DNA of 64,000 nt from an uncultured Acidimicrobiia bacterium (GTDB lineage: Bacteria > Actinomycetota > Acidimicrobiia > IMCC26256 > JAENVU01): the NCBI GenBank assembly GCA_963835005.1, contig CAWIEA010000009.1:444435-508434 (forward strand), given 5' to 3'. Positions 17,612 through 43,729 of this stretch are shown piece after piece (position 1 is the first letter of the stretch; each line of letters begins with the position of its first letter). Position numbers and translations under genes: made by a program. The notes below the pieces were generated by a model. That model worked only from the letters and a program-made list of their open reading frames with translations. It was not told where the DNA came from and searched no databases.

Positions 17612-17633
17612 CCGACGCAAGGCCCGGCCCCGA

Positions 17634-17720
17634 GAGCGAAGCGGGAGCCACGAACGCCGTCGGCCGCGCGGCCAGCGGAGCGGGGCCCACGCGGCCCGGC
17701 CCGGAGGGTCGAGAGCGGGA
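17634..17720 (+). repeat. Intercistronic repeat element, copy A (SDR to LLM gap)
   Basis: GAGCGAAGCGG...AGCGGAGCGGGGCCCACGCGGCCCGGCCCGGAGGGTCGAGAGCGGGA ends directly at ATG 17721. It aligns over its full length with copy B at 32704-32793. Confidence 0.85.
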
Positions 17721-18602
17721 ATGTTGGTTCGGGCTGTTCCTCCCCCAGCTGAGAATGTCGTTCGCCACGATCCTCGAACGCACGCTCGCGGCCGAGGCCG
17801 CCGGCTTCGACTCGGTGTGGCTGATGGACCACCTCGCGGCACCGGCCCTCCCCGAGACCGACACGCTCGAGGGCTGGACGCTCGCGTCGGCACTCGCGGT
17901 GCGGACGTCGAGCATCCGGATCGGCCACCTCGTGACCTGCGATCCGTTCCGGCACCCCGCGGTGCTGGCGAAGATGGCCGCCACCGTCGACGTCCTCTCC
18001 GACGGCCGCCTCGAGCTCGGGCTCGGGTGGGGATCGGTCGAGCGCGAGCTCGAGACCTTCGGGTTCGGGAACGCGTGCCGCCGCCGCGGGCGAGGCGGAT
18101 GCGGGAGACGATCGAGATCCTCGATCTGATGTTCACGGGGGAGCCGTTCGACCACGACGGCGAGCACACGCTCCGCGGCGCGATCGGTCGTCCCCGCCCG
18201 GTGCAGCAGCCGCGCCCGCCACTGCACATCGGCGGGGCCGGGCCCAAGCTCACGATGCCGATGGTGCGCGACCACGCGGACTGGTGGAACTGCCCGACCT
18301 ACGCGGTCGACCGGCTGGACGAGCTGCGGCCGCTCGCCGGCGACGCGCGCGTCTCGGTGCAGCACCCGATCGGCCTCGCACCGAACGACGGGAGGCGCGA
18401 CGAGACGGTCGCGCTCGCCGAGCGGCGGTTCGGCCCCTGGGGCGGGCTCGTCGCGGGCACGGGCACCGAAGTCGCGGACGCGCTCGCGGCCGAGGCCGCG
18501 TCCGTCGTCGAGGGCTTCGTGATCCAGCTCACCGACTTCGGCGAACCCGAGACCATCGCCCGCTTCATGGCCGACGTCGCTCCGACCGTCCGCTCCGCCT
18601 GA
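17721..18602 (+). pseudogene. LLM class (luciferase-like) flavin/F420-dependent oxidoreductase, frame broken near 17724 and 18075
   Basis: WFGLFLPQ...FDSVWLMDHL is in the frame of ORF 16708..18129. The C-terminal half (MRETIEILDLMFTGEPFDHDG...) is in ORF 17721..18602. ATG 17721 is one base out of frame with the N-terminal half. Confidence 0.8.
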
Positions 18603-20162: not shown

Positions 20163-21017
20163 TCAGGGCGCCGCGTTCAGTCGGCGCTCGCGGCGCTGCC
20201 CGAAGTAGGTCGCGATCACGAGCACGATGATGCTGCCGAACAGGATCATCGACGCGAGGACGTTGATCTGCGGTGGGGTCGCGGTCCGGGACTGCCCGAA
20301 GATCCGAACCGGGAACGTCGTGGTGCTCGGGCCCGAGACGAAGTACGTGATGATGAAGTCGTCGATCGACAGGGCGAACGACAGCAGGAACGCGGCGAGG
20401 ATGCCGGGGATGATGAGCGGCAGCGTCACCTTGAGGAACGTCCTGGTCGGGTTCGCGCCGAGGTCCATCGCCGCGTCCTCGAGCGTCCAGTCGAAGCCGC
20501 GCAATCGCGCCTTGACCGTCAACGCGACGTAGCTCACGCAGAACATGATGTGCGCGAGGAGGATCGTCGCGAACCCGAGCTGGAAGTTGTGGTTCAGCAG
20601 GATGAGGTGCGGCTCGAGGAACAGCGTCAGCAGCGACGCGCCGAGCACGATCTCGGGCGCCGTGAGCGGGAGCACGAGCAGGAAGTTCACCCCGCTCCCA
20701 CCCCGGAAGCGGTAGCGCACCAGGGCGATCGCCACGAACGTGCCGATGATCGTGGCGATCGTCGCCGCGATCAGCGCGATCTCGAGGCTGAGCACCAGCG
20801 CCTTCACCAGCTCCTGGTCGGCGAACGGGTGCAGCCAGTTCTCGAACGTGAACTTCTCCCACACCGCGTTGAAGCGCCCGGACGGCTGGTTGAAGCTGAA
20901 CGCGACGATCACGAAGATCGGCAGGAACAGGTAGAGCAGCGCCGCGCCCGCGGCGACGTTGATCAGGGCGCGCCCGATCCGCCCGAGCGGCGAGGTGACG
21001 GTCCCGCTCACGTTCAT
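20163..21017 (-). CDS. potC: Spermidine/putrescine-type ABC transporter permease
   Basis: The start is MNVSG. It has six TM helices and an EAA-like loop ([16 protein letters not shown]). Confidence 0.85.
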
Positions 21018-21108
21018 CTTGTCCGCTCCTGGCCCTGCGGGCCGGGCCGCTCGGGCCACGCCCCGCTTTCACGACGGTCGAGCGCGGCGAACGCGCCCCG
21101 CGGCGCTC
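21018..21108 (-). repeat. Intercistronic repeat element, copy E (potB to potC gap)
   Basis: Read on the minus strand: GAGCGCCGCGG...GCGTGGCCCGAGCGGCCCGGCCCGCAGGGCCAGGAGCGGACAAG then ATG. A 31-nt core is identical to copy B. The element begins inside the potB stop (GTGAGCG). Confidence 0.8.
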
Positions 21109-21985
21109 ACGTGAGGTCCTCGGTGCCGAGGATCATGGCGTAGACGACCACGACCACCATCACGATCGCCATGAACACGAACGAGAGCGCGGCGGCGACG
21201 GGATAGTCGACCTGCACCAGGAACTGGTTCTGGACGACGTTCCCGATCATCGTGTTCTTCGCGCTGCCCAGGTAGTACGCGTTCACGAAGTCGCCGGCAG
21301 CCGGGATGAACACGAGCAGGCTTCCGGCGAAGACGCCGGGCAGCGAGAGCGGGAAGACCACCTTGCGGAACGCGCGCCAGGTGTTCGAGTAGAGGTCACG
21401 CGCCGCGTCGATGAGGCGCGGGTCGATCTTCTCGAGCGCGACGTAGATCGGCAGCACCATGAACGGCAGGAAGTTGTAGGTGATGCCGCCGATGACGGCC
21501 CACTGGGTGCGCAGCAACGTGCCGTTCGGTCCGAGGATCCCGATGTCGCGCAGGATCCCGACGACGGCGCCCTGATCGCCGAGGATCGTCTTCCACGCGA
21601 GCGTGCGGATGAGGAAGTTCGTGAAGAACGGGACGACCACGAGGCCGAGCAGGATGTTCTTGAACCGTCCGCCCCGGAACGCGATGACGTACGCGAGCGG
21701 GTACGCGATGACGAGCGCGAGCAGCGTGGCGATGAGTGCGTACTGGAACGACCGGTAGAACTGGTCGCCGTACGAAGAGAACGCACTCGAGTAGTTGTCC
21801 CAGTGCCAGTCGAAGACCGGGTCCGAGAAGCGGGTCGGCGCGGCCGACAGCGACATCCGGAACAGGGTGTAGAGCGGGAAGAAGAAGAAGATGAACAGGA
21901 AGATCAGGCCCGGGCCGAGGAGCAGCCACGGCGCCCACCGGGCGCGCTTGCGGCCCTGATCGTCCCGCTCGACCGTGTTCGGCAT
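21107..21985 (-). CDS. potB: Spermidine/putrescine-type ABC transporter permease
   Basis: 292 aa and polytopic, with an EAA-like loop (LIDAARDLYSNTWRAF). Confidence 0.85.
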   Translation of the reverse strand: MPNTVERDDQGRKRARWAPWLLLGPGLIFLFIFFFFPLYTLFRMSLSAAPTRFSDPVFDWHWDNYSSAFSSYGDQFYRSFQYALIATLLALVIAYPLAYVIAFRGGRFKNILLGLVVVPFFTNFLIRTLAWKTILGDQGAVVGILRDIGILGPNGTLLRTQWAVIGGITYNFLPFMVLPIYVALEKIDPRLIDAARDLYSNTWRAFRKVVFPLSLPGVFAGSLLVFIPAAGDFVNAYYLGSAKNTMIGNVVQNQFLVQVDYPVAAALSFVFMAIVMVVVVVYAMILGTEDLT

Positions 21986-24450: not shown

Positions 24451-24508
24451 GCAAGGATTCCTGACGGATTCCGTCACGTGGAAACACAATTGCAACGGAA
24501 TCCCTTGC
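24451..24508. promoter_or_regulatory. Candidate operator cluster with three GGATTCC/GGAATCC cores in the potA / aldehyde dehydrogenase divergent region
   Basis: GCAAGGATTCC lies at 24451-24461. The palindrome GACGGA-T-TCCGTC lies at 24463-24475. GGAATCCCTTGC lies at 24497-24508. The 10-mer GACGGATTCC recurs at 30618-30627. Confidence 0.45.
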
Positions 24509-24572
24509 GCGACCGGCGGGTGGGGCGCGCAACATCGTGGTCCAAGGCACGGAGACAAAGGGAGCCTGCCCG

Positions 24573-25993
24573 ATGCCCGACCAGAATTTCATCGCCGGGA
24601 CCTGGCGCGACGCCCGGGACGGGGCGACCGACGAGGTCCTGAACCCGGCCACCGGTGAGGTCCTGGCCAAGGTTCCGGCCAGCGGGGCGACCGAGGTCGA
24701 CGAGGCGGTCGACGCCGCGGCGGGCGCGTTCGGCGAGTGGAGCACGATGACGCCCCGGGGGCGCAGCGAGATCCTCCACCAGGTCGCGAACGCCATCGAG
24801 GCCGACCTCGAGAACATCAAGCGGATCGAGATGGAGAACTGCGGCAAGCCCGCCTCCATCATCGAGTTCGAGCTCGACCTGACCCTCGACAACTGGCGAT
24901 TCTTCGCCGGCGGGGCGCGGTTCCTCGAAGGCCGGGCCGCGGGCGAGTACCTCGACGACCACACGAGCTACGTCCGCCGCGACGCGCTCGGCGTGATCGG
25001 GTCGATCGCACCCTGGAACTACCCGCTGAACATGGCCACCTGGAAGCTCGGTCCCGCGCTCGCGGCGGGCAACACGGTGGTGCTGAAGCCGTCGGAGCTG
25101 ACGCCGCTCAGCGCGCTGCGGCTGGCCGAGATCACCGCCGACATCCTCCCGACCGGCGTCCTCAACGTCGTCACCGGCCAGGGCGAGACCGCGGGTGACG
25201 CGCTGTGCGGCACCCGAAGGTGGCGATGGTGTCGCTGACCGGCAGCGTCGAGACCGGGAAGCTCATCGCGAAGACCGCGGCCGAGACCCTGAAGCGCGTC
25301 CACCTCGAGCTCGGCGGGAAGGCCCCCGTCGTGATCTTCGACGACGCCGACCTCGAGCTCGCGATCTCGACCCTCACCGAGATGGCCTATTACAACTCGG
25401 GTCAGGACTGCACCGCGCCGTGCCGCCTGATGGCCGGCCCCAAGGTCTACGACGATCTGGTGAGCGGGCTGTCCGAGTCCGTCGGCCAGATCGCCACCGG
25501 CGACCCGTTCGACGAGGCCACGGCCATGGGCCCGGTCATCTCGGCCGACCAGCTCGACCGCGTGTCGGGCATGGTGGCCCGGGCGGCCGAGGCCGGCGCC
25601 GAGGTCACGGTCGGCGGCCACGCGATCGACCGGCCCGGCTTCTTCTACGAGCCGTCGGTCGTCGCCAACCCCGCGCAGGACAGCGAGATCGTGCAGCGCG
25701 AGGTCTTCGGCCCGGTCGTGTCGGTCCAGCGCTTCAGCGACGAGGAGCAGGCGATCGCCTGGGCCAACGACGTCGACTACGGCCTGTCGTCGAGCGTGTG
25801 GACGAACGACGTGGGCCGCGCGATGCGCATGAGCTCGGCGCTGCACTTCGGCTGCGTCTGGGTGAACGACCACATCCCGATCGTGTCGGAGATGCCGCAC
25901 GGAGGGTTCAAGCACTCGGGCTACGGCAAGGACATGTCGATCTACGCGATCGAGGCCTACACCGAGCTCAAGCACGTGATGATCAAGCACTGA
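24573..25993 (+). pseudogene. patD: Gamma-aminobutyraldehyde dehydrogenase-like NAD(P) aldehyde dehydrogenase, frame broken near 25204
   Basis: The sequence runs MPDQNFIAG...IAPWNYPLNMATWKLGPALAAGNTVVLKPSE, and then ORF 25205..25993 supplies ELGGKAP...GQDCTA. There is an AAAGGGAG Shine-Dalgarno. Confidence 0.8.
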
Positions 25994-26008
25994 CCTGAGG
26001 GACGCACG

Positions 26009-27362
26009 ATGCCTGGACTGAACGAACGCGCCGCCGAGATCACCGACGCGGAGAACAAGCTGCTGTGGGAGCGGACGCCCGGCTCGAAGAGCCTGTTCGA
26101 GCGCGCCCTGAGGTCGATGCCTCAGGGCGTGCCGTCGTCCTTCCAGGCGTGGGAGCCGTACCCCGTGTACCTGCGCGAGGGGAAGGGCAGCCACGTCTGG
26201 GACGTCGACGGGAACGAGTACGCCGACTTCCACAACGGCTTCGGCTCGATGGTCGTCGGCCACGCGGACCCGAAGGTCGCCGAGGCGATCGAGAGGGCCG
26301 CACGGACCGGCACCCACTTCGCCGCGCCGACCGAGGGAACGGTGCTCTACGCCGAGGAGCTGTGCCGGCGCTTCCAGGCCGAGAAGGTCCGGTTCTGCAA
26401 CTCGGGCACCGAGGCGACGATGAGCGCGATCCGAGTCGCGGCGCGCGGCGACCGGTCGGGAGCACATCGTCAAGATCGAGGGCTCGTACCACGGCCATCA
26501 CGACGCGGTGATGTTCTCGGTCGTCCCCAACTCCGACCTCATGGGCGGACGCGAGGCGCCCGCCACGACCCCCATGTCCAAGGGCATTCCCGCGGTGATG
26601 GCCGAGTACACCCACGTCGTCCCGTTCAACGACCTCGAGGTGCTGTCCGCGCTGCTCGACGAGCGGGGCGACGAGATCGCCTGCCTCATCCTCGAGCCGG
26701 TGATGATGAACATCGGGATCTGCCAGCCCGACCCCGGCTACCTCCAGGGCCTGGCGGACCTCCTGCACAAGCACGGCGCGCTCCTCGTGTTCGACGAGGT
26801 GAAGAGCGGCGCGACCGTCGCCTACGGCGGCGCGGTCGAGCGGTACGGCACCGTGCCCGACCTGGCGTGCTGGGCCAAGGCGATCGGTGGGGGCACACCG
26901 GCGGCCGCGTTCGGCGGCCGGGCCGAGGTCATGGATGCCATCGACCACGGCGCCGCGCAGCAGGGCACGTTCAACGGCAACCCGCTCGTCGCCGCGGCCG
27001 GGCTCGCGGCGCTGACCGAGGTGCTGACGCCGGACGCGTACGACGAGCTGGCCAAGCTCGGCACCCGGCTCGCCGAGGGCTGCGCGCGTGCGCTGGCCGA
27101 GAACTCGATCCCCGGCCACGCGGTCGATCTCGGTGCCAAGGGCTGCGTGTCCTACCGGCCCGAGCCGCTCCACAGCTACCGCGACTTCCTCGAGACGAAT
27201 CCCGACCTCTACCTCGCGTCGTACCCGTGGGCGATGAACCGCGGGACGTTCATGACGCCGGGTGACGAGGAGCAGTGGACGATCTCGGTCCAGCACACCG
27301 AGGCCGACATCGACGGCTACGTCGACCAGTTCGCCGACTTCTGCGCCGCGCTCCGGGCCTGA
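26009..27362 (+). pseudogene. Class III aminotransferase (glutamate-1-semialdehyde aminomutase-like), frame broken near 26445
   Basis: The N-terminal part runs to FCNSGTEATMSAIRVA in ORF 26009. It then continues as TGREHIVKIEGSYHGHHD...FDEVKSG in the frame of ORF 26508..27362. Confidence 0.8.
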
Positions 27363-30677: not shown

Positions 30678-31172
30678 ATGACCACCAGCCGACGGAGTGG
30701 CGAGCGTACCGGGACCGAGCGTGCGGTGGTCATCGACGACGTCGACAAGGCGATCATCGAGCAGCTCCAGCAGGACGGTCGCCTGCCGTACACGAAGCTC
30801 GGCGCCGCGGTCGGGCTGTCGGAGGCCGCGGTCCGCCAGCGCGTGCAGCGCCTCGTCGAGTCCGGGGTCGTGCAGATCGTCGCGGTGACCGATCCGCTCA
30901 CGCTCGGGTTCCGGCGCGAGGCGATGATCGGCCTGAAGATCGAGGGCGACCTCCGCGGTGTCGCCGACACGATCGCCTCCATCCCCGAGGTCTCCTACGT
31001 CGTCGTGGTCAGCGGCTCGTTCGACCTCCTCATGGAGGTGGTCTGCGAGGACGACGACCACCTGCTCGCGCTGCTGAACGACAAGGTGCGCTCGATCCCG
31101 GGCGTGCGCAGCACCGAGACCTTCACCTATCTCCGTCTCTACAAGCAGACCTACGCATGGGGTACCCGATAG
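30678..31172 (+). CDS. Lrp/AsnC family transcriptional regulator
   Basis: It has a helix-turn-helix (IIEQLQQDGRLPYTKLGAAVGLSEAAVRQRVQRL) followed by a RAM/AsnC_trans_reg domain. Confidence 0.85.
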   Translation: MTTSRRSGERTGTERAVVIDDVDKAIIEQLQQDGRLPYTKLGAAVGLSEAAVRQRVQRLVESGVVQIVAVTDPLTLGFRREAMIGLKIEGDLRGVADTIASIPEVSYVVVVSGSFDLLMEVVCEDDDHLLALLNDKVRSIPGVRSTETFTYLRLYKQTYAWGTR

Positions 31173-32563
31173 TGGACGCACACCCGAAGCACACGTACGA
31201 CAGCGACCGCCTCCACGAGCAGGCGCGCCGCCACCTCTGGATGCACTTCAGCCGGCTCGGCTCGTTCGACGCGACCGACGTGCCGATCATGGCCGAGGGC
31301 GAGGGCTGCTTCCTCTGGGACGCGAAGGGCAACCGCTACCTCGACGCGCTGTCCGGTCTGTTCACCGTGCAGCTCGGCCACGGGCGGGAGGACCTGGCCG
31401 AGACGGCACGCGAGCAGGCGAGCACGCTCGAGTACTTCCCGATCTGGAACTACGCGCACCCGCCCGCGATCGAGCTCGCGGCCAAGCTCGCGGACCTCGC
31501 GCCCGGCGACCTCAACCGCGTGTTCTTCACCACCGGTGGGTCCGAGGCCGTCGAGTCCGCGTGGAAGCTCGCGCGGCAGTACTTCCGCGCGGTCGGTCAG
31601 CCCGGCCGCTACAAGGTCATCGCCCGCGAGACCGCGTACCACGGCACGACGATGGGCGCGCTCGCGATCACCGGCGTCCCGGCGCTGCGCGAGGCGTTCG
31701 AGCCGCTGACGCCCGGCACCTCGCACGTGATGAACACGAACCGCTTCCGGCACCGCCTCGAGGACGACGAGGCGGCGTTCTCCGAGGTCGCCACCGACGC
31801 CATCGAGGCGCGCATCCTGGCGGAGGGACCGGAGACCGTGGCGGCGGTGTACCTCGAGCCCGTGCAGAACGCGGGCGGGTGCTTCGTGCCACCGGCCGGC
31901 TACTTCCAGCGCGTGCGCGAGATCTGCGACCGCCACGGCGTGCTGCTCGTCTCCGACGAGGTCATCTGCGCGTTCGGCCGGCTCGGGTCGATGTTCGGGG
32001 CCGAGCGCTACGGCTACCAGCCCGACATGATCACGTGTGCGAAGGGGCTCACCAGCGGCTACTCGCCGCTCGGCGCGGTGATCTGTCGCGACTTCCTCGC
32101 CGAGCCCTTCCTCTCGGGGACCGAGACCTTCCTGCACGGCCTCACGTTCGGCGGCCACCCGGTCAGCTGCGCGGTCGGGCTGCGCAACCTCGAGCTGTTC
32201 GAGGAGGAGGGGATCCTCGAGCACGTCCGGGCCAACGAAGCCGAGTTCCGCGGCCGGATCGAGAGCCTGCGCGAGGTTCCCATCGTGGGCGACGTCCGCG
32301 GCGCGGGCTACTTCCTCGCGCTCGAGCTGGTGGCGGACCCCGACACCCGCGCCCGGTTCACCAAGGAGCAGGCCTCCGACCTGCTGCGCGGCTTCCTCGC
32401 GCCGCGCCTCTACGAGGCCGGACTCATCGCCCGCACCGACGACCGCGGCGACCCGGTGGTGCAGCTCTCGCCCCCGTTGATCGCCGGGCCCGAGGAGTTC
32501 GCGACCATCGAGACCACGTTGCGCACCTGCCTCACCGAGGCCTGGAAGCGCTCCCAGGCGTGA
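31157..32563 (+). CDS. Omega-amino acid/polyamine:pyruvate-type class III aminotransferase
   Basis: 468 aa, with FLWDAKGNRYLDALSGLFTVQLGHGR, SDEVICAFGRLG and CAKGLTSGY. It overlaps the Lrp gene by 16 nt. Confidence 0.8.
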   Translation: MGYPIVDAHPKHTYDSDRLHEQARRHLWMHFSRLGSFDATDVPIMAEGEGCFLWDAKGNRYLDALSGLFTVQLGHGREDLAETAREQASTLEYFPIWNYAHPPAIELAAKLADLAPGDLNRVFFTTGGSEAVESAWKLARQYFRAVGQPGRYKVIARETAYHGTTMGALAITGVPALREAFEPLTPGTSHVMNTNRFRHRLEDDEAAFSEVATDAIEARILAEGPETVAAVYLEPVQNAGGCFVPPAGYFQRVREICDRHGVLLVSDEVICAFGRLGSMFGAERYGYQPDMITCAKGLTSGYSPLGAVICRDFLAEPFLSGTETFLHGLTFGGHPVSCAVGLRNLELFEEEGILEHVRANEAEFRGRIESLREVPIVGDVRGAGYFLALELVADPDTRARFTKEQASDLLRGFLAPRLYEAGLIARTDDRGDPVVQLSPPLIAGPEEFATIETTLRTCLTEAWKRSQA

Positions 32564-32651
32564 GCGCAGCGGAACGTCGTCGCGCTCGCAGCCGATCAAT
32601 GAGCGAGCGGGGCCCCAGCGGCCCGACCCGTCAGGACCGAGAGCGGGAAGG
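32562..32651 (+). repeat. Intercistronic repeat element, copy C (first unit upstream of ald)
   Basis: It starts inside the aminotransferase stop (GTGAGCGCAGCGG). It ends GAGAGCGGGAAGG, directly before CTG 32652, which corresponds to the ATG of the other copies. Confidence 0.85.
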
Positions 32652-32703
32652 CTGACCGTGCCGGACACCGCACCGGTTGTCGGCATCCCGCGTGCGCGTG
32701 CCA

Positions 32704-32793
32704 GAGCGAAGCGGCGATCGACGACGCCAACGGCCGCGCGGGGAGCGGAGCGTGGCCCGAGCGGCCCGGCCCGCAGGGCCGAGAGCGGGAGAG
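32704..32793 (+). repeat. Intercistronic repeat element, copy B (second unit, directly before ald ATG)
   Basis: GAGCGAAGCGG...GGAGCGGAGCGTGGCCCGAGCGGCCCGGCCCGCAGGGCCGAGAGCGGGAGAG then ATG 32794. It lies 142 nt downstream of the equivalent positions of copy C. Confidence 0.9.
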
Positions 32794-33934
32794 ATGACCT
32801 CCAGCAACCAAATGCTCGTTGTCGGCATCCCGCGTGAGACGAAGGACGGCGAGCACCGGGTCGCGATCACGCCGGACGGTGTGCACGAGCTGACGTCGCA
32901 CGGCGTGACCGTGCTCGTGGAGCACGACGCGGGCGCTGACTCCGCCATCACCGACGCCGAGTACCGAGCCGTCGGCGCCGAGATCGTCGGGGTGGCGGCC
33001 GACGTCTGGTCCCGCGCCGGCATGGTCTTGAAGGTCAAGGAGCCCCAGGGCGACGAGCTCGCGATGCTGCGGCCCGGTCTCGTCCTGTTCACCTACCTCC
33101 ACCTGGCCGCGTACCCCGAGGTCGCCGACGCGCTGCTCGAGCACGACGTCACCGGCATCGCGTACGAGACCGTGCAGCCCGACGACAGCTCGCTGCCGCT
33201 GCTCGCGCCGATGAGCGAGGTCGCGGGACGCATGGCCACCCAGGTCGGTGCCCGGTTCCTCGAACGCGAGCTGGGCGGACGGGGCGTGCTGCTCGGCGGC
33301 GTCCCCGGTGTCCGCCCGGCGCGGCGTCGTCGTGCTCGGCGCGGGCAACGTCGGATGGAACTCGGCCTGGATCGCGCAGGGCATGGAAGCCGAGGTCCTC
33401 CTGCTGGACAAGAACCTCGACCGGCTGCGCTTCGTCGATCAGATCCACCAGGGCCGCATCGTGACGCTCGCGAGCAACCGCGGCGCGGTGGCGCGCGCCG
33501 TGGCGGACGCCGATCTGGTGATCGGGGCGGTGCTGGTGCCGGCCGGACGCGCGCCGGTCGTCGTCACCGAGGACATGGTACGGACGATGAAGCCGGGTGC
33601 GGTGATCGTCGACGTCGCGGTCGACCAGGGCGGGTGCATCGCGACCACGCACGAGACGACGCACCACGACCCGGTGTACGAGCACTACGGCGTCGTTCAC
33701 TACGCGGTCGGCAACATGCCGGGCGCGGTGCCGTTCACGTCGACCTACGCGCTCACGAACGCGACGCTCCCGTACGCGCTCAATCTGGCGACGCACGGGC
33801 TGCGCGACGCGGTCGCGACCGATCCTGCGCTCGCGCTCGGGGTCAACACCGTGACCGGGTCGGTGGTCCACCCGATCGTGGCCGACGCCCTCGACCGGCC
33901 GCACGTCCCGCTCGCCGAGGCGCTCGGCTCCTGA
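32794..33934 (+). pseudogene. ald: Alanine dehydrogenase, frame broken near 33321
   Basis: The N-terminal half reads MLVVGIPRETKDGEHRVAITP...PLLAPMSEVAGRMA. The C-terminal half reads VVVLGAGNVGWNSA...HYAVGNMPGAVP and is in ORF 33248..33934. An alternative start is ATG 32812. Confidence 0.85.
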
Positions 33935-34111: not shown

Positions 34112-34294
34112 TTACTTCGAGGGCGGCGCTTCCGACTCGTGGAGCGCGTCGAAGACCTCTTCGCGATGCACTTCGACCTCGCGAGGGGCCTTGATGCCGA
34201 TGCGAACCTGCTCGCCTCGCACCTCGAGGACGGTCACCACGATGTCGGTCCCGATCATGATGCTCTGGTTGGATCGCCGTGTGAGCACGAGCAC
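34112..34294 (-). CDS. csrA: Carbon storage regulator CsrA
   Basis: 60 aa: (V)[47 protein letters not shown], which is canonical CsrA. It has a GTG start and a GGAAGGAG Shine-Dalgarno. Confidence 0.9.
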
Positions 34295-35127: not shown

Positions 35128-35200
35128 TGGGCCGCCCGGGACTCGAACCCGGAACCAACGGGTTAAAAGCCCGCTGCTCTGCCAGTTGAGCTAGCGACCC
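35128..35200 (-). tRNA. tRNA-Lys (anticodon TTT)
   Basis: A 73-nt cloverleaf. The acceptor GGGTCGC pairs with GCGGCCC, the anticodon loop is CTTTTAA and the T-loop is TTCGAGT. CCA is not encoded. Confidence 0.9.
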
Positions 35201-39070: not shown

Positions 39071-39143
39071 GCCCCCATCGTCTAGTGGCCCAGGACGCCG
39101 CCCTTTCAAGGCGGTAACGGGGATTCGAACTCCCCTGGGGGCA
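39071..39143 (+). tRNA. tRNA-Glu (anticodon TTC)
   Basis: 73 nt, GCCCCCATCGTCTAGTGG...TGGGGGCA, with anticodon loop CTTTCAA. Confidence 0.9.
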
Positions 39144-39180
39144 CAGGCCACGGCATCGGTTCGCCGATGAGGTGGTGCAA

Positions 39181-39255
39181 GGTCCTGTGGTGCAGTTAGG
39201 AGTGCACGCCGCCCTGTCAAGGCGGAGGCCGCGGGTTCAAATCCCGTCAGGACCG
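39181..39255 (+). tRNA. tRNA-Asp (anticodon GTC)
   Basis: 75 nt. The acceptor GGTCCTG pairs with CAGGACC. The anticodon loop is CTGTCAA and the T-loop is TTCAAAT. Confidence 0.9.
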
Positions 39256-39281
39256 CAGAGCGAGCCGGTGCTCGCTCGCCC

Positions 39282-39354
39282 GGCCGGGTAGCTCAGTTGG
39301 CAGAGCACACGCCTGAAAAGCGTGGGGTCACCGGATCGACGCCGGTCCCGGCCA
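39282..39354 (+). tRNA. tRNA-Phe (anticodon GAA)
   Basis: 73 nt. The acceptor GGCCGGG pairs with CCCGGCC and the anticodon loop is CTGAAAA. The T-loop reads ATCGACG, with A at the usual T54 position. Confidence 0.85.
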
Positions 39355-41025: not shown

Positions 41026-42090
41026 TCAGCCCGCGCGCTCGACGAGCGCCCGACCGTGGCCGGCGACGACCTCGCCGACGGTCCAGGCGTCGACGCCCGC
41101 TTCGCGCAGCACCTCGACCGCCCTCGCGTCCTCACCCTCGGGGACGATCGCGAGCATCCCGAGGCCGAGGTTGAAGACGTGCTCCATCTCGTCGTCGTCG
41201 ATGTCGCCCGCGACCTGGATCTCGGAGAAGATCCGCGGCTCCGGCCACGAGCCGCGCCTCACGATCCCGTCGCAGTCGTCGGGGAGCGCGCGATTGAGGT
41301 TTCCGGGGACGCCTCCGCCGGTGATGTGCGCGAAGCCGTGCACCGTGCTCGCGGCGCGGAGCGCCGCCATGAACGGGGCGTAGATCACACTCGGGGTCAG
41401 CAGCTCCGCACCGAGCGACCGCGCCGCGCCTTCCCACGCGGGCTCGTCGACGGCACGGCCGCTCCGGTCGAGCAGCGCGCGGCGGGCGAGCGAGTATCCG
41501 TTGCAGCGGAGCCCCGGGCTGGCGAGGCCGACGACGCGGTCACCGGGTGCGACGTCGCGTGGCAGGATCTCGGCCCGCTCGACGACCCCCACCGCGAAGC
41601 CGACGAGATCGAACTCGCCCGGCTCCATGAGGTCGGGGTGCTCGGAGATCTCGCCGCCGCTCAGCGCGGCGCCGGCCTGCCGGCAGCCCTCGGCGACCCC
41701 GCTCACGATCTCCTCGACCGTCTCGGGGACGACCTTGCCGACCGACAGGTAGTCGAGGAACGCGAGCGGCTCCGCTCCCTGCACTGCGATGTCGTCGACG
41801 CTCATGGCGACGACGTCGAGGCCGATCGTGTCGTAGCGACCGACGAGTCGGGCGATCGCGGACTTCGTCCCGACGCCGTCCGTCGACAGCACCATCACCG
41901 GATCGCGGTAGGGGAGGTTGCCGAGCGCGAACAGGCCGCCGAAGCCGCCGACGTCGCCGAGGACCTCGGGCCGGTACGTCGACCGCACGTGCGCCTTGAT
42001 GAGCTCGACGGCCTTGTCGCCCGCGGAGATGTCGACACCCGCGCCCGTGTAGGTCAGGCGCTCGCCCGGCGCCGACGCCCCCTCGTTCAT
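41026..42090 (-). CDS. purM: Phosphoribosylformylglycinamidine cyclo-ligase (AIR synthetase)
   Basis: Full-length PurM-like sequence. ATG 42090 is preferred because it is in phase with the repeat element. GTG 42093 is also possible. Confidence 0.9.
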   Translation of the reverse strand: MNEGASAPGERLTYTGAGVDISAGDKAVELIKAHVRSTYRPEVLGDVGGFGGLFALGNLPYRDPVMVLSTDGVGTKSAIARLVGRYDTIGLDVVAMSVDDIAVQGAEPLAFLDYLSVGKVVPETVEEIVSGVAEGCRQAGAALSGGEISEHPDLMEPGEFDLVGFAVGVVERAEILPRDVAPGDRVVGLASPGLRCNGYSLARRALLDRSGRAVDEPAWEGAARSLGAELLTPSVIYAPFMAALRAASTVHGFAHITGGGVPGNLNRALPDDCDGIVRRGSWPEPRIFSEIQVAGDIDDDEMEHVFNLGLGMLAIVPEGEDARAVEVLREAGVDAWTVGEVVAGHGRALVERAG

Positions 42091-42183
42091 CACACCCGCT
42101 CTCGGCGTCGCCGGGCCGCTTGGGCCCCGCTCCGCTCGCTCGTCGGCGGCGGCGGCGAAGCAGGCGAGCTGTCGGCTTCGCTC
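42091..42183 (-). repeat. Intercistronic repeat element, copy D (purF to purM gap)
   Basis: Read on the minus strand: GAGCGAAGCCG...GAGCGGAGCGGGGCCCAAGCGGCCCGGCGACGCCGAGAGCGGGTGTG then ATG. It starts inside the purF stop (GTGAGCG). Confidence 0.85.
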
Positions 42184-43729
42184 ACGGGATGTGGGTCGCG
42201 CCGGTCTCGGTGAGGTCGAGGACCGGGGCCTCGAGGAGGAGCTTGGAGTCGGCCCCGGTCAGCGCGACCGGCACCGGGTACTCCTTCGAGAGGCATGCCG
42301 TGCAGAACGACTCGGGCGGGGCGCCGGTGGCGTGACGCAGCCGGTCGAGCTCGAGGTACGCGAGCGAGTCGACGTCGAGGTACTCACGGATCTCGCCCAC
42401 CGACAGGTCGGCGGCGAGGAGCTCACCTCGGCGGCCGGTGTCCATGCCGTAGAAGCACGGCCAGCGGTAGGGCGGCGAGGAGACCCGGAAGTGGACCTCG
42501 GACGCGCCGGCTTCGCGCAGCATCTTGATGACCTCGCGCGTCGTGGTTCCCCGCACGATCGAGTCGTCGACGACGACCAGCCGCTTGCCCCGGATCGACT
42601 CGGGCAGCGGGTTGAGCTTCATGCGCACGCCCGCGCCCCGCATCTGCTGGTTGGGCTGGATGAACGTGCGGCCGACGTAGCGATTCTTCACCAGGCCGTC
42701 GCCGTAGGGGATGCCCGAACCGCGGGCGTAGCCCTGGGCGGCCGGGATGCCGGACTCGGGCACCGGCATCACCATGTCGGCAATGGCCGGGGCCTGGTCC
42801 GCGAGCGCCTCGCCCATGCGGGTGCGTGCCGCATGCACGCTCTGGCCGTAGAGCCGCGTGTCGGGGCGGGCGAAGTAGACGAACTCGAAGAGGCAGAGGG
42901 TCGGGTCGGGCTCGGCGTAGCGGTGCTCGCGCCGCAGGCCGGACGCGTCGATCACCACCATCTCGCCGGGCTGGACGTCGCGCACGTAGTGGGCGCCGAC
43001 GATGTCGAGCGCCGCGGTCTCGCTCGCGAGCACCCAGCCACCGCCCTCGAGCCGGCCGAGGACCAGCGGCCAGAACCCGTGCGGGTCACGGACGCCGATG
43101 AGCCGGGCGTCGTCCATGAGCACCAGCGAGAAGCCACCCTCCAGCCGGGGCAGCACCTTCTCCAGCGCGAGCTCCAGCTCCTTGCCATCGGAGCGGGGCT
43201 CGTCCGGCCACTCGCGGGCGACGAGCTCGGCGATCAGCGCCGAGTCGGTGGTCGAGTCGAAGCTCGTCTCGTCCGGGGTCATGCCCGGGAGCATCCCGAG
43301 GCCGGAGGCGAGCTCGGCGGTGTTCGTGAGGTTGCCGTTGTGGCCGAGCGCGAAGCCGGCGTCTCCGACCGAGCGGTAGACGGGCTGCGCGTTCTGCCAG
43401 GACGACGAGCCGGTGGTCGAGTAGCGGTTGTGGCCGATCGCGAGGTGGCCCTGGAGCGGCGCGAGGCGGCGCTCGTCGAACACCTGGGTGACGAGGCCCA
43501 TGTCCTTGGCGACCGTGATCGTCTCGCCGTCGCTCACCGCGATGCCGGCCGACTCCTGGCCGCGGTGCTGGAGCGCGAAGAGCCCCAGGTAGGTCAGGTG
43601 CGAGACCGACTGCCCCGGCCCGTACACGCCGAAGACGCCACAGGCGTGCCCGGGCGTCTCGTCGCGCGTGAGATCAGCCGCAGGATCGGAGGGATCGTGC
43701 CGGGAGAGCACGTCTCCATCATCCCACAT
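42182..43729 (-). CDS. purF: Amidophosphoribosyltransferase
   Basis: It has the CGVFGV N-terminal nucleophile and a PRTase motif (VVVDDSIVRGTT). Confidence 0.9.
   Translation of the reverse strand: MWDDGDVLSRHDPSDPAADLTRDETPGHACGVFGVYGPGQSVSHLTYLGLFALQHRGQESAGIAVSDGETITVAKDMGLVTQVFDERRLAPLQGHLAIGHNRYSTTGSSSWQNAQPVYRSVGDAGFALGHNGNLTNTAELASGLGMLPGMTPDETSFDSTTDSALIAELVAREWPDEPRSDGKELELALEKVLPRLEGGFSLVLMDDARLIGVRDPHGFWPLVLGRLEGGGWVLASETAALDIVGAHYVRDVQPGEMVVIDASGLRREHRYAEPDPTLCLFEFVYFARPDTRLYGQSVHAARTRMGEALADQAPAIADMVMPVPESGIPAAQGYARGSGIPYGDGLVKNRYVGRTFIQPNQQMRGAGVRMKLNPLPESIRGKRLVVVDDSIVRGTTTREVIKMLREAGASEVHFRVSSPPYRWPCFYGMDTGRRGELLAADLSVGEIREYLDVDSLAYLELDRLRHATGAPPESFCTACLSKEYPVPVALTGADSKLLLEAPVLDLTETGATHIP

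What the first reader, a model, noticed from the sequence alone, without database searches (positions are those of the whole stretch)
32560..32845. Tandem 142-nt duplication of repeat element plus the ald translation start
Unit 1 (32562-32703) and unit 2 (32704-32845) each consist of the 90-nt element, a start codon position and about 16 codons.

The landmarks GAGCG.AGCGG, GAGAGCGGGA and the perfect 19-mer GTTGTCGGCATCCCGCGTG (32676-32694 and 32818-32836) are all offset by exactly 142 nt.

In unit 1 the start position is CTG, and the remnant reads V-P-D-T-A-P-V-V-G-I-P-R. This is a decayed copy of the Ald N-terminus MLVVGIPRETK. Unit 2 carries the live ATG.

This looks like a VNTR-type expansion, or an element insertion that carried the ald ribosome-binding region and start codon.
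Basis: seen in the sequence. Interest (0 to 1): 0.55.

Follow-up and report, generated by a model that had tools for sequence, protein, structure and literature searches.

The report
Two repeat elements rewrite ald start
Upstream of the alanine dehydrogenase gene of an uncultured Acidimicrobiia bacterium lie two separate copies of a small repeat that sits between operon genes, and the second copy landed inside the gene's first codons and apparently gave it a new start codon, so this is not one unit that was duplicated.

Summary
The 142-nt periodicity is real: 79/142 identities at offset 142 against a window background of 39.5±5.9, plus a perfect 19-mer. It is not a diverged tandem duplication. 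The "90-nt element" belongs to an interspersed family of about 95 nt with five copies in this window. Each copy lies between co-oriented genes. Most start at the upstream TGA and end in a purine tract plus ATGA.

The two ald copies, B and C, are 70% identical, no closer than any two dispersed copies (66-78%). C groups with copy A. Similarity along the unit is patchy: 19/19 in the 19-mer but 3/18 in the adjacent spacer.

The closest relative found (Ald 94% identical) has one B-like unit running straight into ald, with N-terminus VPDAGDAALVVG. Unit 1's VPDTAPVVGIPR is therefore the ancestral start, not a decayed copy. More distant relatives have no element, only a GTGA stop/start overlap.

Best reading: element C arrived later inside the ald 5' codons, with a 19-nt target duplication, and supplies a new ATG at 32794.

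The architecture resembles mycobacterial MIRUs. Sequence homology to MIRUs is only suggestive. The insertion mechanism is unresolved. Interest is moderate.

The parts
31172..32563 (+). Class-III aminotransferase gene (AT). It lies upstream of ald, and its TGA stop is at 32561-63.
   Evidence: Pfam Aminotran_3, E=4e-90. AT-ald synteny is conserved in the relatives inspected.
32560..32657 (+). Element copy B, the older copy. It begins with GTGA, which overlaps the AT stop. It ends ...GAGAGCGGGAAGGCTGACC, with CTG where other copies have ATG.
   Evidence: nhmmer E=2e-17. The orthologous B-like sequence lies upstream of ald in L089.
32560..32655 (+). A 31-codon short ORF inside B. Its GTG overlaps the AT TGA, and its stop TGA lies 2 nt before the old ald GTG.
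   Evidence: Frame map. Equivalent ORFs occur in copy D and in the L020 copy.
32658..32694 (+). The ancestral ald start (GTG) plus 11 codons, VPDTAPVVGIPR, now cut off from ald.
   Evidence: With 32695-32836 removed, the window is colinear with L089. Relative P0001 starts VPDAGDAALVVGVPRETK.
32676..32694 (+). 19-nt direct repeat, left copy (GTTGTCGGCATCCCGCGTG).
   Evidence: It carries the window-specific GTT codon, which is also present in the right copy.
32695..32703 (+). Junction filler CGCGTGCCA of unknown origin. Its first six bases repeat the preceding CGCGTG.
   Evidence: Read directly from the sequence. It has no counterpart in L089.
32702..32799 (+). Element copy C, the younger copy. 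It ends GAGAGCGGGAGAGATGACC.
   Evidence: nhmmer E=6e-19. It is closest to copy A (78% identity; 74% bootstrap) and shares a 31-mer with copy E.
32794..33934 (+). The present ald reading frame, starting MTSSNQMLVVGIPRETK. A second in-frame ATG lies at 32812. One extra G at 33323 shifts the frame.
   Evidence: Pfam AlaDh_PNT_N and AlaDh_PNT_C fall on the two halves. The single-base gap relative to L089 is shown. After removing that base, 63 codons differ synonymously and 18 non-synonymously from L089.
32800..32817 (+). An 18-nt new N-terminal spacer, TCCAGCAACCAAATGCTC. It is unrelated to the unit 1 spacer (3/18 identical) and its source is unknown.
32818..32836 (+). 19-nt direct repeat, right copy. 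It encodes VVGIPR of the live Ald.
32658..32837 (+). A 59-codon ORF opened by the old GTG start. It reads through C out of frame and stops 43 nt past the new ATG. It is a potential upstream ORF that overlaps the ald start.
   Evidence: Its existence is shown, but any function is inferred.
17632..17725 (+). Family copy A, between a short-chain dehydrogenase gene and a luciferase-like oxidoreductase gene.
   Evidence: nhmmer E=5.5e-18. Flanking genes identified by Pfam.
21013..21110 (-). Family copy E, between two ABC permease genes. GTGAGCG flanks it on both sides.
   Evidence: The empty site in relative L171 has a single GTGAGCG with a GTGA overlap.
42086..42186 (-). Family copy D, between purF and purM. 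Its short ORF runs from the GTGA overlap to TGATGA at the purM ATG.

Best explanation
The locus holds two independently derived members of a lineage-restricted interspersed repeat of about 95 nt. This repeat lives between co-transcribed genes. It is not a duplicated unit.

**Family architecture.** The architecture is MIRU-like. The 5' end is (G/A)TGAGCG, which carries the stop of the upstream gene and the start of a roughly 30-codon short ORF. The 3' end is a purine tract (GAGAG/AGGAG) followed by ATGA(A/C)C.

**Inferred role.** Inserted at a GTGA stop/start overlap, the element could keep the downstream gene translated, either by coupling or from its own ATG. This is inferred, not shown.

**Proposed order of events at ald.**
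1. The ancestor had the aminotransferase (AT) and ald overlapping at GTGA.
2. Element B inserted there before the split from the L089 lineage. Ald then began VPD...VVGIPRETK.
3. After that split, a second family member, C, entered 37 nt into the ald coding sequence. It came with 9 nt and 18 nt of extra sequence of unknown origin and with a 19-nt duplication of the VVGIPR codons.

**Result.** C's own ATG (32794) now heads an intact frame, MTSSNQML-VVGIPRETK. The old GTG opens a 59-codon ORF that overlaps the new start.

**Shown versus inferred.** The anatomy, the family, the order of events and the empty sites in relatives are shown. Use of the new ATG, translational coupling and the molecular insertion mechanism are inferred.
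For: **A real family.**
- Five copies lie in this 64 kb, against about one good hit (L020) in 1.4 Mb of relatives' DNA.
- All copies are co-oriented with co-directional flanking genes.

**B and C are not sisters.**
- Pairwise identity of B and C is 0.70, within the family range of 0.66-0.78.
- C groups with A at 74% bootstrap.
- Within the element, 7 sites have B=L089≠C, and at 5 of them C matches the family consensus. No site has B=C differing from both L089 and the consensus.

**Uneven similarity.** The 19-mer is 19/19 identical, the spacer 3/18 and the tail 1/9 (p=9e-8).

**The single-unit state exists.**
- L089 (Ald 94% identical) has B-like sequence followed directly by GTG CCG GAC ... 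ald.
- The window with 32695-32836 removed is colinear with L089.

**The 19-mer duplication is young.** Both copies carry GTT where L089 and every other relative inspected have GTC.

**Element-free ancestors.** L003, L002, L008, L170, P0002 and P0003 have AT and ald overlapping by 4 nt or separated by 3 nt.

**Independent filled and empty pair.** Copy E is flanked by GTGAGCG on both sides. Relative L171 has a single GTGAGCG at a GTGA overlap. E adds M-N in front of the native VSGTVTS.

**ald remains under purifying selection.** 63 codons differ synonymously and 18 non-synonymously.
Against: - The exact phase is unexplained by an independent insertion and must be coincidence. Both units have 18 nt between TGACC and the 19-mer. 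I estimate roughly 1 in 10 given the in-frame constraint.
- A 19-nt target duplication is much longer than the roughly 7 nt seen at copy E.
- The 9-nt and 18-nt fillers have no identified source.
- No donor copy close to C lies in the window. The nearest, A, is only 78% identical.
- The same pattern would arise if the L089 lineage had deleted unit 2 by recombination between the 19-mers. That scenario needs one more event.
- Only one close relative is available, and only 70 nt of its upstream sequence.
- Several genes in the window are split by frameshifts, including ald itself. Small indels in the elements may therefore be sequencing errors, and ald may be inactive.
- The SD-like tract is weak: GGAG lies only 2 nt from the ATG and GAGAG lies at -13..-9.
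Confidence: 0.6

Rival explanations
1. In-situ tandem duplication. A single 142-nt unit (element plus ald 5' end) duplicated by slippage or unequal crossing-over. The two copies then diverged, and the L089 lineage either predates the event or lost one unit.
For: - The phase is exactly 142 nt across all landmarks, with equal 18-nt spacers.
- MIRU-type repeats are known to form VNTR arrays (PMC3184786).
- At 70% identity, a run of at least 19 matches occurs in 4% of simulations.
Against: - B and C are no closer to each other than dispersed copies are, and C clusters with A.
- B and C share no derived sites, whereas 5-7 derived sites unite B with L089.
- Identity is 19/19 in the 19-mer, yet 3/18 and 1/9 in the flanking segments (p=9e-8).
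- Both 19-mers share the window-specific GTT. The 19-mer duplication is therefore young, while the B/C divergence is old.
Confidence: 0.15
2. Junction of two diverged alleles. One lineage carried AT-B-GTG-ald and another carried AT-C-ATG-ald. The two were joined in tandem, either by real recombination after gene transfer or by a metagenome assembler merging two strain haplotypes.
For: - It would explain the conserved phase together with the deep divergence.
- N-terminal tails of Ald are hypervariable among close relatives, while the VVGIPR codons are conserved.
- The window shows signs of an error-prone assembly.
Against: - No relative with a C-type allele or an MTSSNQ N-terminus appeared among the closest Ald homologs inspected.
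- The left junction CGCGTGCCA|GAGCG does not match the end of AT, which should precede C in such an allele.
- The shared GTT in both 19-mers argues for one genome lineage.
Confidence: 0.12
3. A duplicated cis-regulatory RNA, such as a riboswitch, leader or attenuator, controls ald.
For: The position is immediately 5' of a metabolic gene, and a GGCC...GGCC hairpin is invariant in all copies.
Against: - Rfam gives no match at gathering thresholds or at E≤10.
- Folding energies are no better than shuffled sequences (z from -1.1 to +0.9), and no base pairs covary.
- No promoter-like or terminator-like site was found.
- The same element sits before purM, an ABC permease gene and an oxidoreductase gene.
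- The element is absent upstream of ald in all but one of the relatives inspected.
Confidence: 0.03

Closest known systems
MIRUs (mycobacterial interspersed repetitive units; Supply et al. 1997, as summarised in PMC12548453 and PMC3184786)
   Same: - The size fits the 40-100 bp range.
- Many dispersed copies lie between genes of one operon, in the gene orientation.
- Related genomes provide filled and empty sites, with short direct repeats at the filled sites.
- Insertion is at start codons.
- An internal short ORF overlaps the upstream stop, and its own stop overlaps the downstream start (ATGA).
- The terminal blocks resemble the 53-bp MIRU292 unit: GCAGAGCGCAGCG ... AGGAGCGGCGCAGATGAC (PMC7977185).
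   Different: - The host is Acidimicrobiia, not Mycobacterium.
- Whole-length sequence similarity to MIRU292 is not detectable.
- The central 40-50 nt, with the GGCC hairpin, has no counterpart in the 53-bp MIRU292 unit.
- The two ald copies are not head-to-tail units of a VNTR. They are separated by 47 nt, 37 nt of it the old ald 5' coding sequence.
- One copy sits inside a coding sequence.
REP/BIME and MITE-type small repeats of bacteria, including enterobacterial RU/ERIC elements that carry ORFs and occur within genes (PMC3184786, PMC2759123)
   Same: It is a short, GC-rich, non-autonomous interspersed repeat with a hairpin. It is located between operon genes. One copy extends into a coding region and contributes codons.
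   Different: No terminal inverted repeats were found. Orientation is strictly the same as the genes. The termini are a stop codon and a start codon rather than palindromes. No transposase or RAYT gene was seen nearby.
Translational coupling at overlapping ATGA/GTGA gene pairs (PMC6728339, PMC12548453)
   Same: The ancestral AT/ald and permease/permease junctions are 4-nt GTGA overlaps. The element recreates (G/A)TGA at its 5' end and ATGA at its 3' end.
   Different: At ald, the coupling chain now ends in a 59-codon ORF that overruns the new start. Coupling to the present ATG is therefore not in the canonical -4 form.

Membership tests
MIRU-like intercistronic repeat | Unit of about 40-100 bp present in many dispersed copies | tested here: met
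   Copies are 94-101 nt. Five lie in this 64 kb at nhmmer E of 1e-14 to 1e-19.
MIRU-like intercistronic repeat | Lies between co-directional genes, in the same orientation as them | tested here: met
   All five window copies and the L020 copy meet this.
MIRU-like intercistronic repeat | Internal short ORF that overlaps the upstream stop and is coupled to the downstream start (-4 spacing) | tested here: inconclusive
   The ORF is complete in B, D and L020. It is frame-broken in E, has no start codon in C and is absent in A. Open frames are common by chance at 71% GC.
MIRU-like intercistronic repeat | Filled and empty sites in related genomes, with short direct repeats at filled sites | tested here: met
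   Copy E has GTGAGCG on both sides, while L171 has a single copy. The AT/ald junction is empty in L003, L002, L008 and L170, and filled in L089 and the window.
MIRU-like intercistronic repeat | Sequence homology to mycobacterial MIRU units | tested here: inconclusive
   Against MIRU292 (PMC7977185), nhmmer finds no hit. Gapped alignment gives p=0.07-0.45. Position-weight-matrix (PWM) scores for the 5' and 3' terminal blocks were reached together by 0 of 5000 shuffles and 0 of 4996 natural 53-mers. Only one MIRU unit was available, and the strand was chosen after seeing the sequence.
MIRU-like intercistronic repeat | Host is a Mycobacterium | tested here: not met
   All close relatives of the ald locus are Acidimicrobiia MAGs.
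VNTR / tandem duplication | Adjacent units are each other's closest relatives | tested here: not met
   B and C are 70% identical, against 66-78% for dispersed pairs. C clusters with A, and B and C share no derived sites.
VNTR / tandem duplication | Head-to-tail units with roughly uniform divergence | tested here: not met
   Segment identities run from 1/9 and 3/18 up to 19/19. TRF does not call an array.
MITE | Terminal inverted repeats | tested here: not met
   No inverted repeat pairs the ends of B or C in 32300-33100.
Curated cis-regulatory RNA (Rfam) | Match to a covariance model, or a conserved structure with covariation | tested here: not met
   Searches give no relevant match. No base pairs covary and fold z-scores are not significant.

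The most novel reading that the evidence does not exclude
The family is a genuinely mobile relative of mycobacterial MIRUs in a different actinobacterial class. Under this reading it homes to GTGAGCG-type stop/start overlaps and duplicates about 7 nt of target. It carries its own stop, short ORF, SD-like tract and ATG, so operon translation survives the insertion. The ald locus would then show such an element replacing a gene's start codon and N-terminus after landing inside the coding sequence.
Probability: 0.3. Interest if true: 0.6.

Novelty: new member of a known kind. Interest (0 to 1): 0.4.

Why it matters
- **Beyond mycobacteria.** If confirmed, MIRU-style repeats between operon genes would extend to an uncultured Acidimicrobiia lineage. 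The origin and mobility of MIRUs are still obscure.
- **Filled and empty sites.** Clean pairs point to a defined target, a GTGA stop/start overlap followed by GCG.
- **Start-codon donation.** The locus is a natural example of a small repeat giving a new start codon and N-terminal tail to a conserved enzyme.
- **Annotation.** The ald start in this genome should be placed at 32794. The upstream VPDTAPVVGIPR frame is a relic. The extra G at 33323 should be checked before ald is called a pseudogene.

Tried and rejected
- **TRF** at minimum score 30 did not call the repeat.
- **Rfam**, both at gathering thresholds on the whole window and at E≤10 on 32450-32950, gave only tRNAs and a spurious miRNA hit.
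- **RNA folding** of the six copies showed no fold stability beyond shuffles and no covariation.
- **Promoter and terminator scan** found nothing.
- **Exact-protein look-ups** of the window's aminotransferase, tried with two different start codons, found nothing.
- **The CsrA look-up** gave only short contigs that do not reach the ald 5' end.
- **JGI contigs** for P0002-P0005, P0007 and P0242 gave gene coordinates but no DNA.
- **Plasmid BLAST** with element C and with a MIRU292 dimer gave no match.
- **Literature searches** for MIRU-like elements outside mycobacteria, or for Acidimicrobiia repeats, found nothing relevant.
- **A regulatory-RNA reading** was considered and rejected.
- **An artefact from collapsed or expanded repeats** was rejected, because the units are too divergent.
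- **A classical MITE** was rejected, because there are no terminal inverted repeats.
Full report
**Observation**

- GAGCGNAGCGG lies at 32562 and 32704.
- GAGAGCGGGA lies at 32639 and 32781.
- The perfect 19-mer GTTGTCGGCATCCCGCGTG lies at 32676 and 32818.
- All three pairs are 142 nt apart.

Ungapped identity of the two units is 79/142. Windows sampled across the 64 kb at the same offset give 39.5±5.9, and no other offset between 100 and 199 exceeds 53. The 19-mer is the only exact direct repeat of at least 19 nt within 300 nt in the window. TRF does not call the array, because the similarity is low and patchy.

**The "90-nt element" is an interspersed family**

A profile built from the copies finds five members in the window:

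| Copy | Coordinates | Strand | Flanking genes (Pfam) |
|---|---|---|---|
| A | 17632-17725 | + | short-chain dehydrogenase → luciferase-like oxidoreductase |
| B | 32560-32657 | + | class-III aminotransferase (AT) → ald |
| C | 32702-32799 | + | within the ald 5' region |
| D | 42086-42186 | - | purF → purM |
| E | 21013-21110 | - | ABC permease → ABC permease |

Each copy lies between two co-directional genes and points the same way as them. Copies B, D and E begin with GTGAGCG, whose TGA is the stop of the upstream gene. Most copies end in GAGAGCGGGA or AGGAGCGGA, a few bases, then ATGA(A/C)C.

In B, D and a copy in relative L020, a roughly 30-codon ORF starts at the (G/A)TG of the (G/A)TGA overlap. 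It stops at a TGA that overlaps or abuts the downstream start. In E this ORF is frame-broken, and in C it has no start codon.

Several alternative identities were checked.
- Rfam gives no match.
- Folding is no more stable than shuffled sequence, and no base pairs covary.
- There are no terminal inverted repeats.
- No promoter-like or terminator-like site was found.

**Organism and relatives**

The ald locus matches Acidimicrobiia MAGs at up to 88% Ald identity among GTDB species representatives. Metagenome proteins reach 94%.

In 1.4 Mb of relatives' DNA the family profile finds one good copy. It lies in L020, between the Lrp-type regulator gene and AT. A few marginal hits also appear. The family therefore expanded in the window's own lineage.

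**History of the ald locus**

In most relatives AT and ald are directly coupled. L003 reads GCGTGAGCGCGCTCGTCGTCGGCATCCCGCGCGAG, a GTGA overlap. L002 and L008 are similar, and L170 has a 3-nt gap. P0002 and P0003 (92-93% identical) overlap by 4 nt according to their gene coordinates.

The closest relative is P0001, on contig L089, at 94% amino-acid and 92.3% nucleotide identity. Its Ald starts VPDAGDAALVVGVPRETK. The 70 nt available upstream are a B-like element ending GCGCTGACC, followed by GTG CCG GAC. If 32695-32836 is removed from the window, the remainder is colinear with L089.

Unit 1's VPDTAPVVGIPR is therefore the ancestral start, and B predates the split between the window and L089 lineages.

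**B and C are not copies of each other**

- B and C are 70% identical, within the range of 66-78% for all pairs. C is closest to A (78%; 74% bootstrap) and shares a perfect 31-mer with E.
- Within the element, 7 sites have B=L089≠C, and at 5 of them C matches the family consensus. No site has B=C differing from both L089 and the consensus.
- Segment identities between the units are 10/11, 13/32, 33/53, 3/18 (spacer), 19/19 (19-mer) and 1/9 (tail). Fisher's test of the 19-mer against the spacer gives p=9e-8.
- Both 19-mers carry GTT where L089 and every other relative inspected have GTC. The 19-nt duplication is therefore young, whereas the B/C divergence is old.

The simplest history has three steps:
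1. The ancestor had a GTGA overlap.
2. B inserted there.
3. Later, C arrived 37 nt into the coding sequence, together with 9 nt (CGCGTGCCA), 18 nt (TCCAGCAACCAAATGCTC) and a 19-nt duplication of the VVGIPR codons.

C's ATG at 32794 then heads MTSSNQMLVVGIPRETK. The old GTG at 32658 now opens a 59-codon ORF ending at 32837.

**An independent filled and empty pair**

Copy E has GTGAGCG on both sides. Relative L171, whose permease is 89% identical, has GACCTGGCGTGAGCGCGCCC: one GTGAGCG at a GTGA overlap. A 92% relative has only a 10-nt gap at this site. The native permease start is VSGTVTS, as in relatives, and E adds M-N in frame. This supports real insertion at stop/start overlaps, with about 7 nt of target duplicated.

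**Weak points**

- The equal 18-nt spacers in both units have to be a coincidence under this model. I estimate about 1 in 10 once the frame is required.
- The 19-nt duplication is longer than the one at copy E.
- The fillers have no known source, and no near-identical donor of C is in the window.
- Loss of unit 2 in the L089 lineage cannot be excluded.
- Only one close relative, with 70 nt of upstream sequence, is available.
- The window carries several frame-split genes. These are ald (one extra G at 33323), an aldehyde dehydrogenase, another aminotransferase and the oxidoreductase after copy A. The assembly may therefore be prone to indel errors, or ald may be inactive.
- With that base removed, ald shows 63 synonymous and 18 non-synonymous codon differences from L089 and no internal stop.

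**Comparison with known systems**

The architecture matches what is reported for MIRUs. They are 40-100 bp units between operon genes, with short direct repeats at filled sites. They insert at start codons, and an internal ORF is coupled at -4 nt (PMC12548453, PMC3184786, citing Supply 1997).

The one MIRU unit I could obtain is MIRU292, from PMC7977185. In reverse complement it reads GCAGAGCGCAGCGATGAGGAGGAGCGGCGCAGATGAC.... This resembles both terminal blocks of the family.
- A position-weight-matrix test of the two terminal blocks was matched jointly by 0 of 5000 shuffles and 0 of 4996 natural 53-mers.
- Whole-length nhmmer and gapped alignment are not significant.

Homology therefore remains open. 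The host and the central segment differ from MIRUs, and the two ald copies are not a head-to-tail VNTR.

**Verdict**

The tandem-duplication reading is replaced by two successive insertions of a MIRU-like repeat, the second of which re-headed ald. It is a new member of a known kind and of moderate interest.

Noticed in passing
window 33318-33325: ald carries one extra G at 33323 (GGCGCGGCGTC, against GGCGCGCGTC in L089). This shifts the frame between the N-terminal and C-terminal domains. All relatives read GGVPGVRPARVVVLGAG across this point.
   Followed up: partly
window 24465-25993, about 26000-27362, and about 18100: Other genes are split between frames. The aldehyde dehydrogenase matches Pfam profile positions 1-204 and 201-461 on two ORFs. 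A class-III aminotransferase ORF starts at profile position 110. The luciferase-like oxidoreductase after copy A changes frame. This suggests an indel-prone (long-read?) assembly or a decaying genome.
   Followed up: partly
window 34112-34294 (-): A CsrA homolog (Pfam E=1e-25) lies next to ald, followed by a LuxR/GerE-type regulator gene. The ald-csrA-GerE-type regulator order is conserved in relatives' contigs, seen for P0004, P0006 and P0007. An identical CsrA occurs in several public metagenomes.
   Followed up: partly
L020 4464-4561: A relative (Ald 84% identical) carries a family copy at a different junction, between the Lrp/AsnC regulator gene and the aminotransferase gene. It has an intact 30-codon short ORF running from ATGA to TGATGA. 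The window has no element at that junction (TAGTG overlap).
   Followed up: yes
window about 540-680: There is a weak hit to the family profile (E=0.45) and a 24-nt-period repeat (569-631). GAGCTGAGCGG-type motifs and a GTGATGAC occur nearby on the minus strand. This may be a degenerate sixth copy.
   Followed up: no
window 31157-31175: The aminotransferase most likely starts at GTG 31172, overlapping the TAG stop of the Lrp/AsnC gene (TAGTG), rather than at the upstream ATG 31157.
   Followed up: partly
window 39071-39354 and 35128-35200: Three tRNA genes are clustered on the + strand, and one lies on the - strand. These are the only Rfam matches in the window.
   Followed up: no
window 3127 and 3268: A 16-nt exact direct repeat, GACGGCGAGCGCGAGC, occurs 141 nt apart inside a minus-strand coding region. 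It is probably a chance or coding repeat.
   Followed up: no
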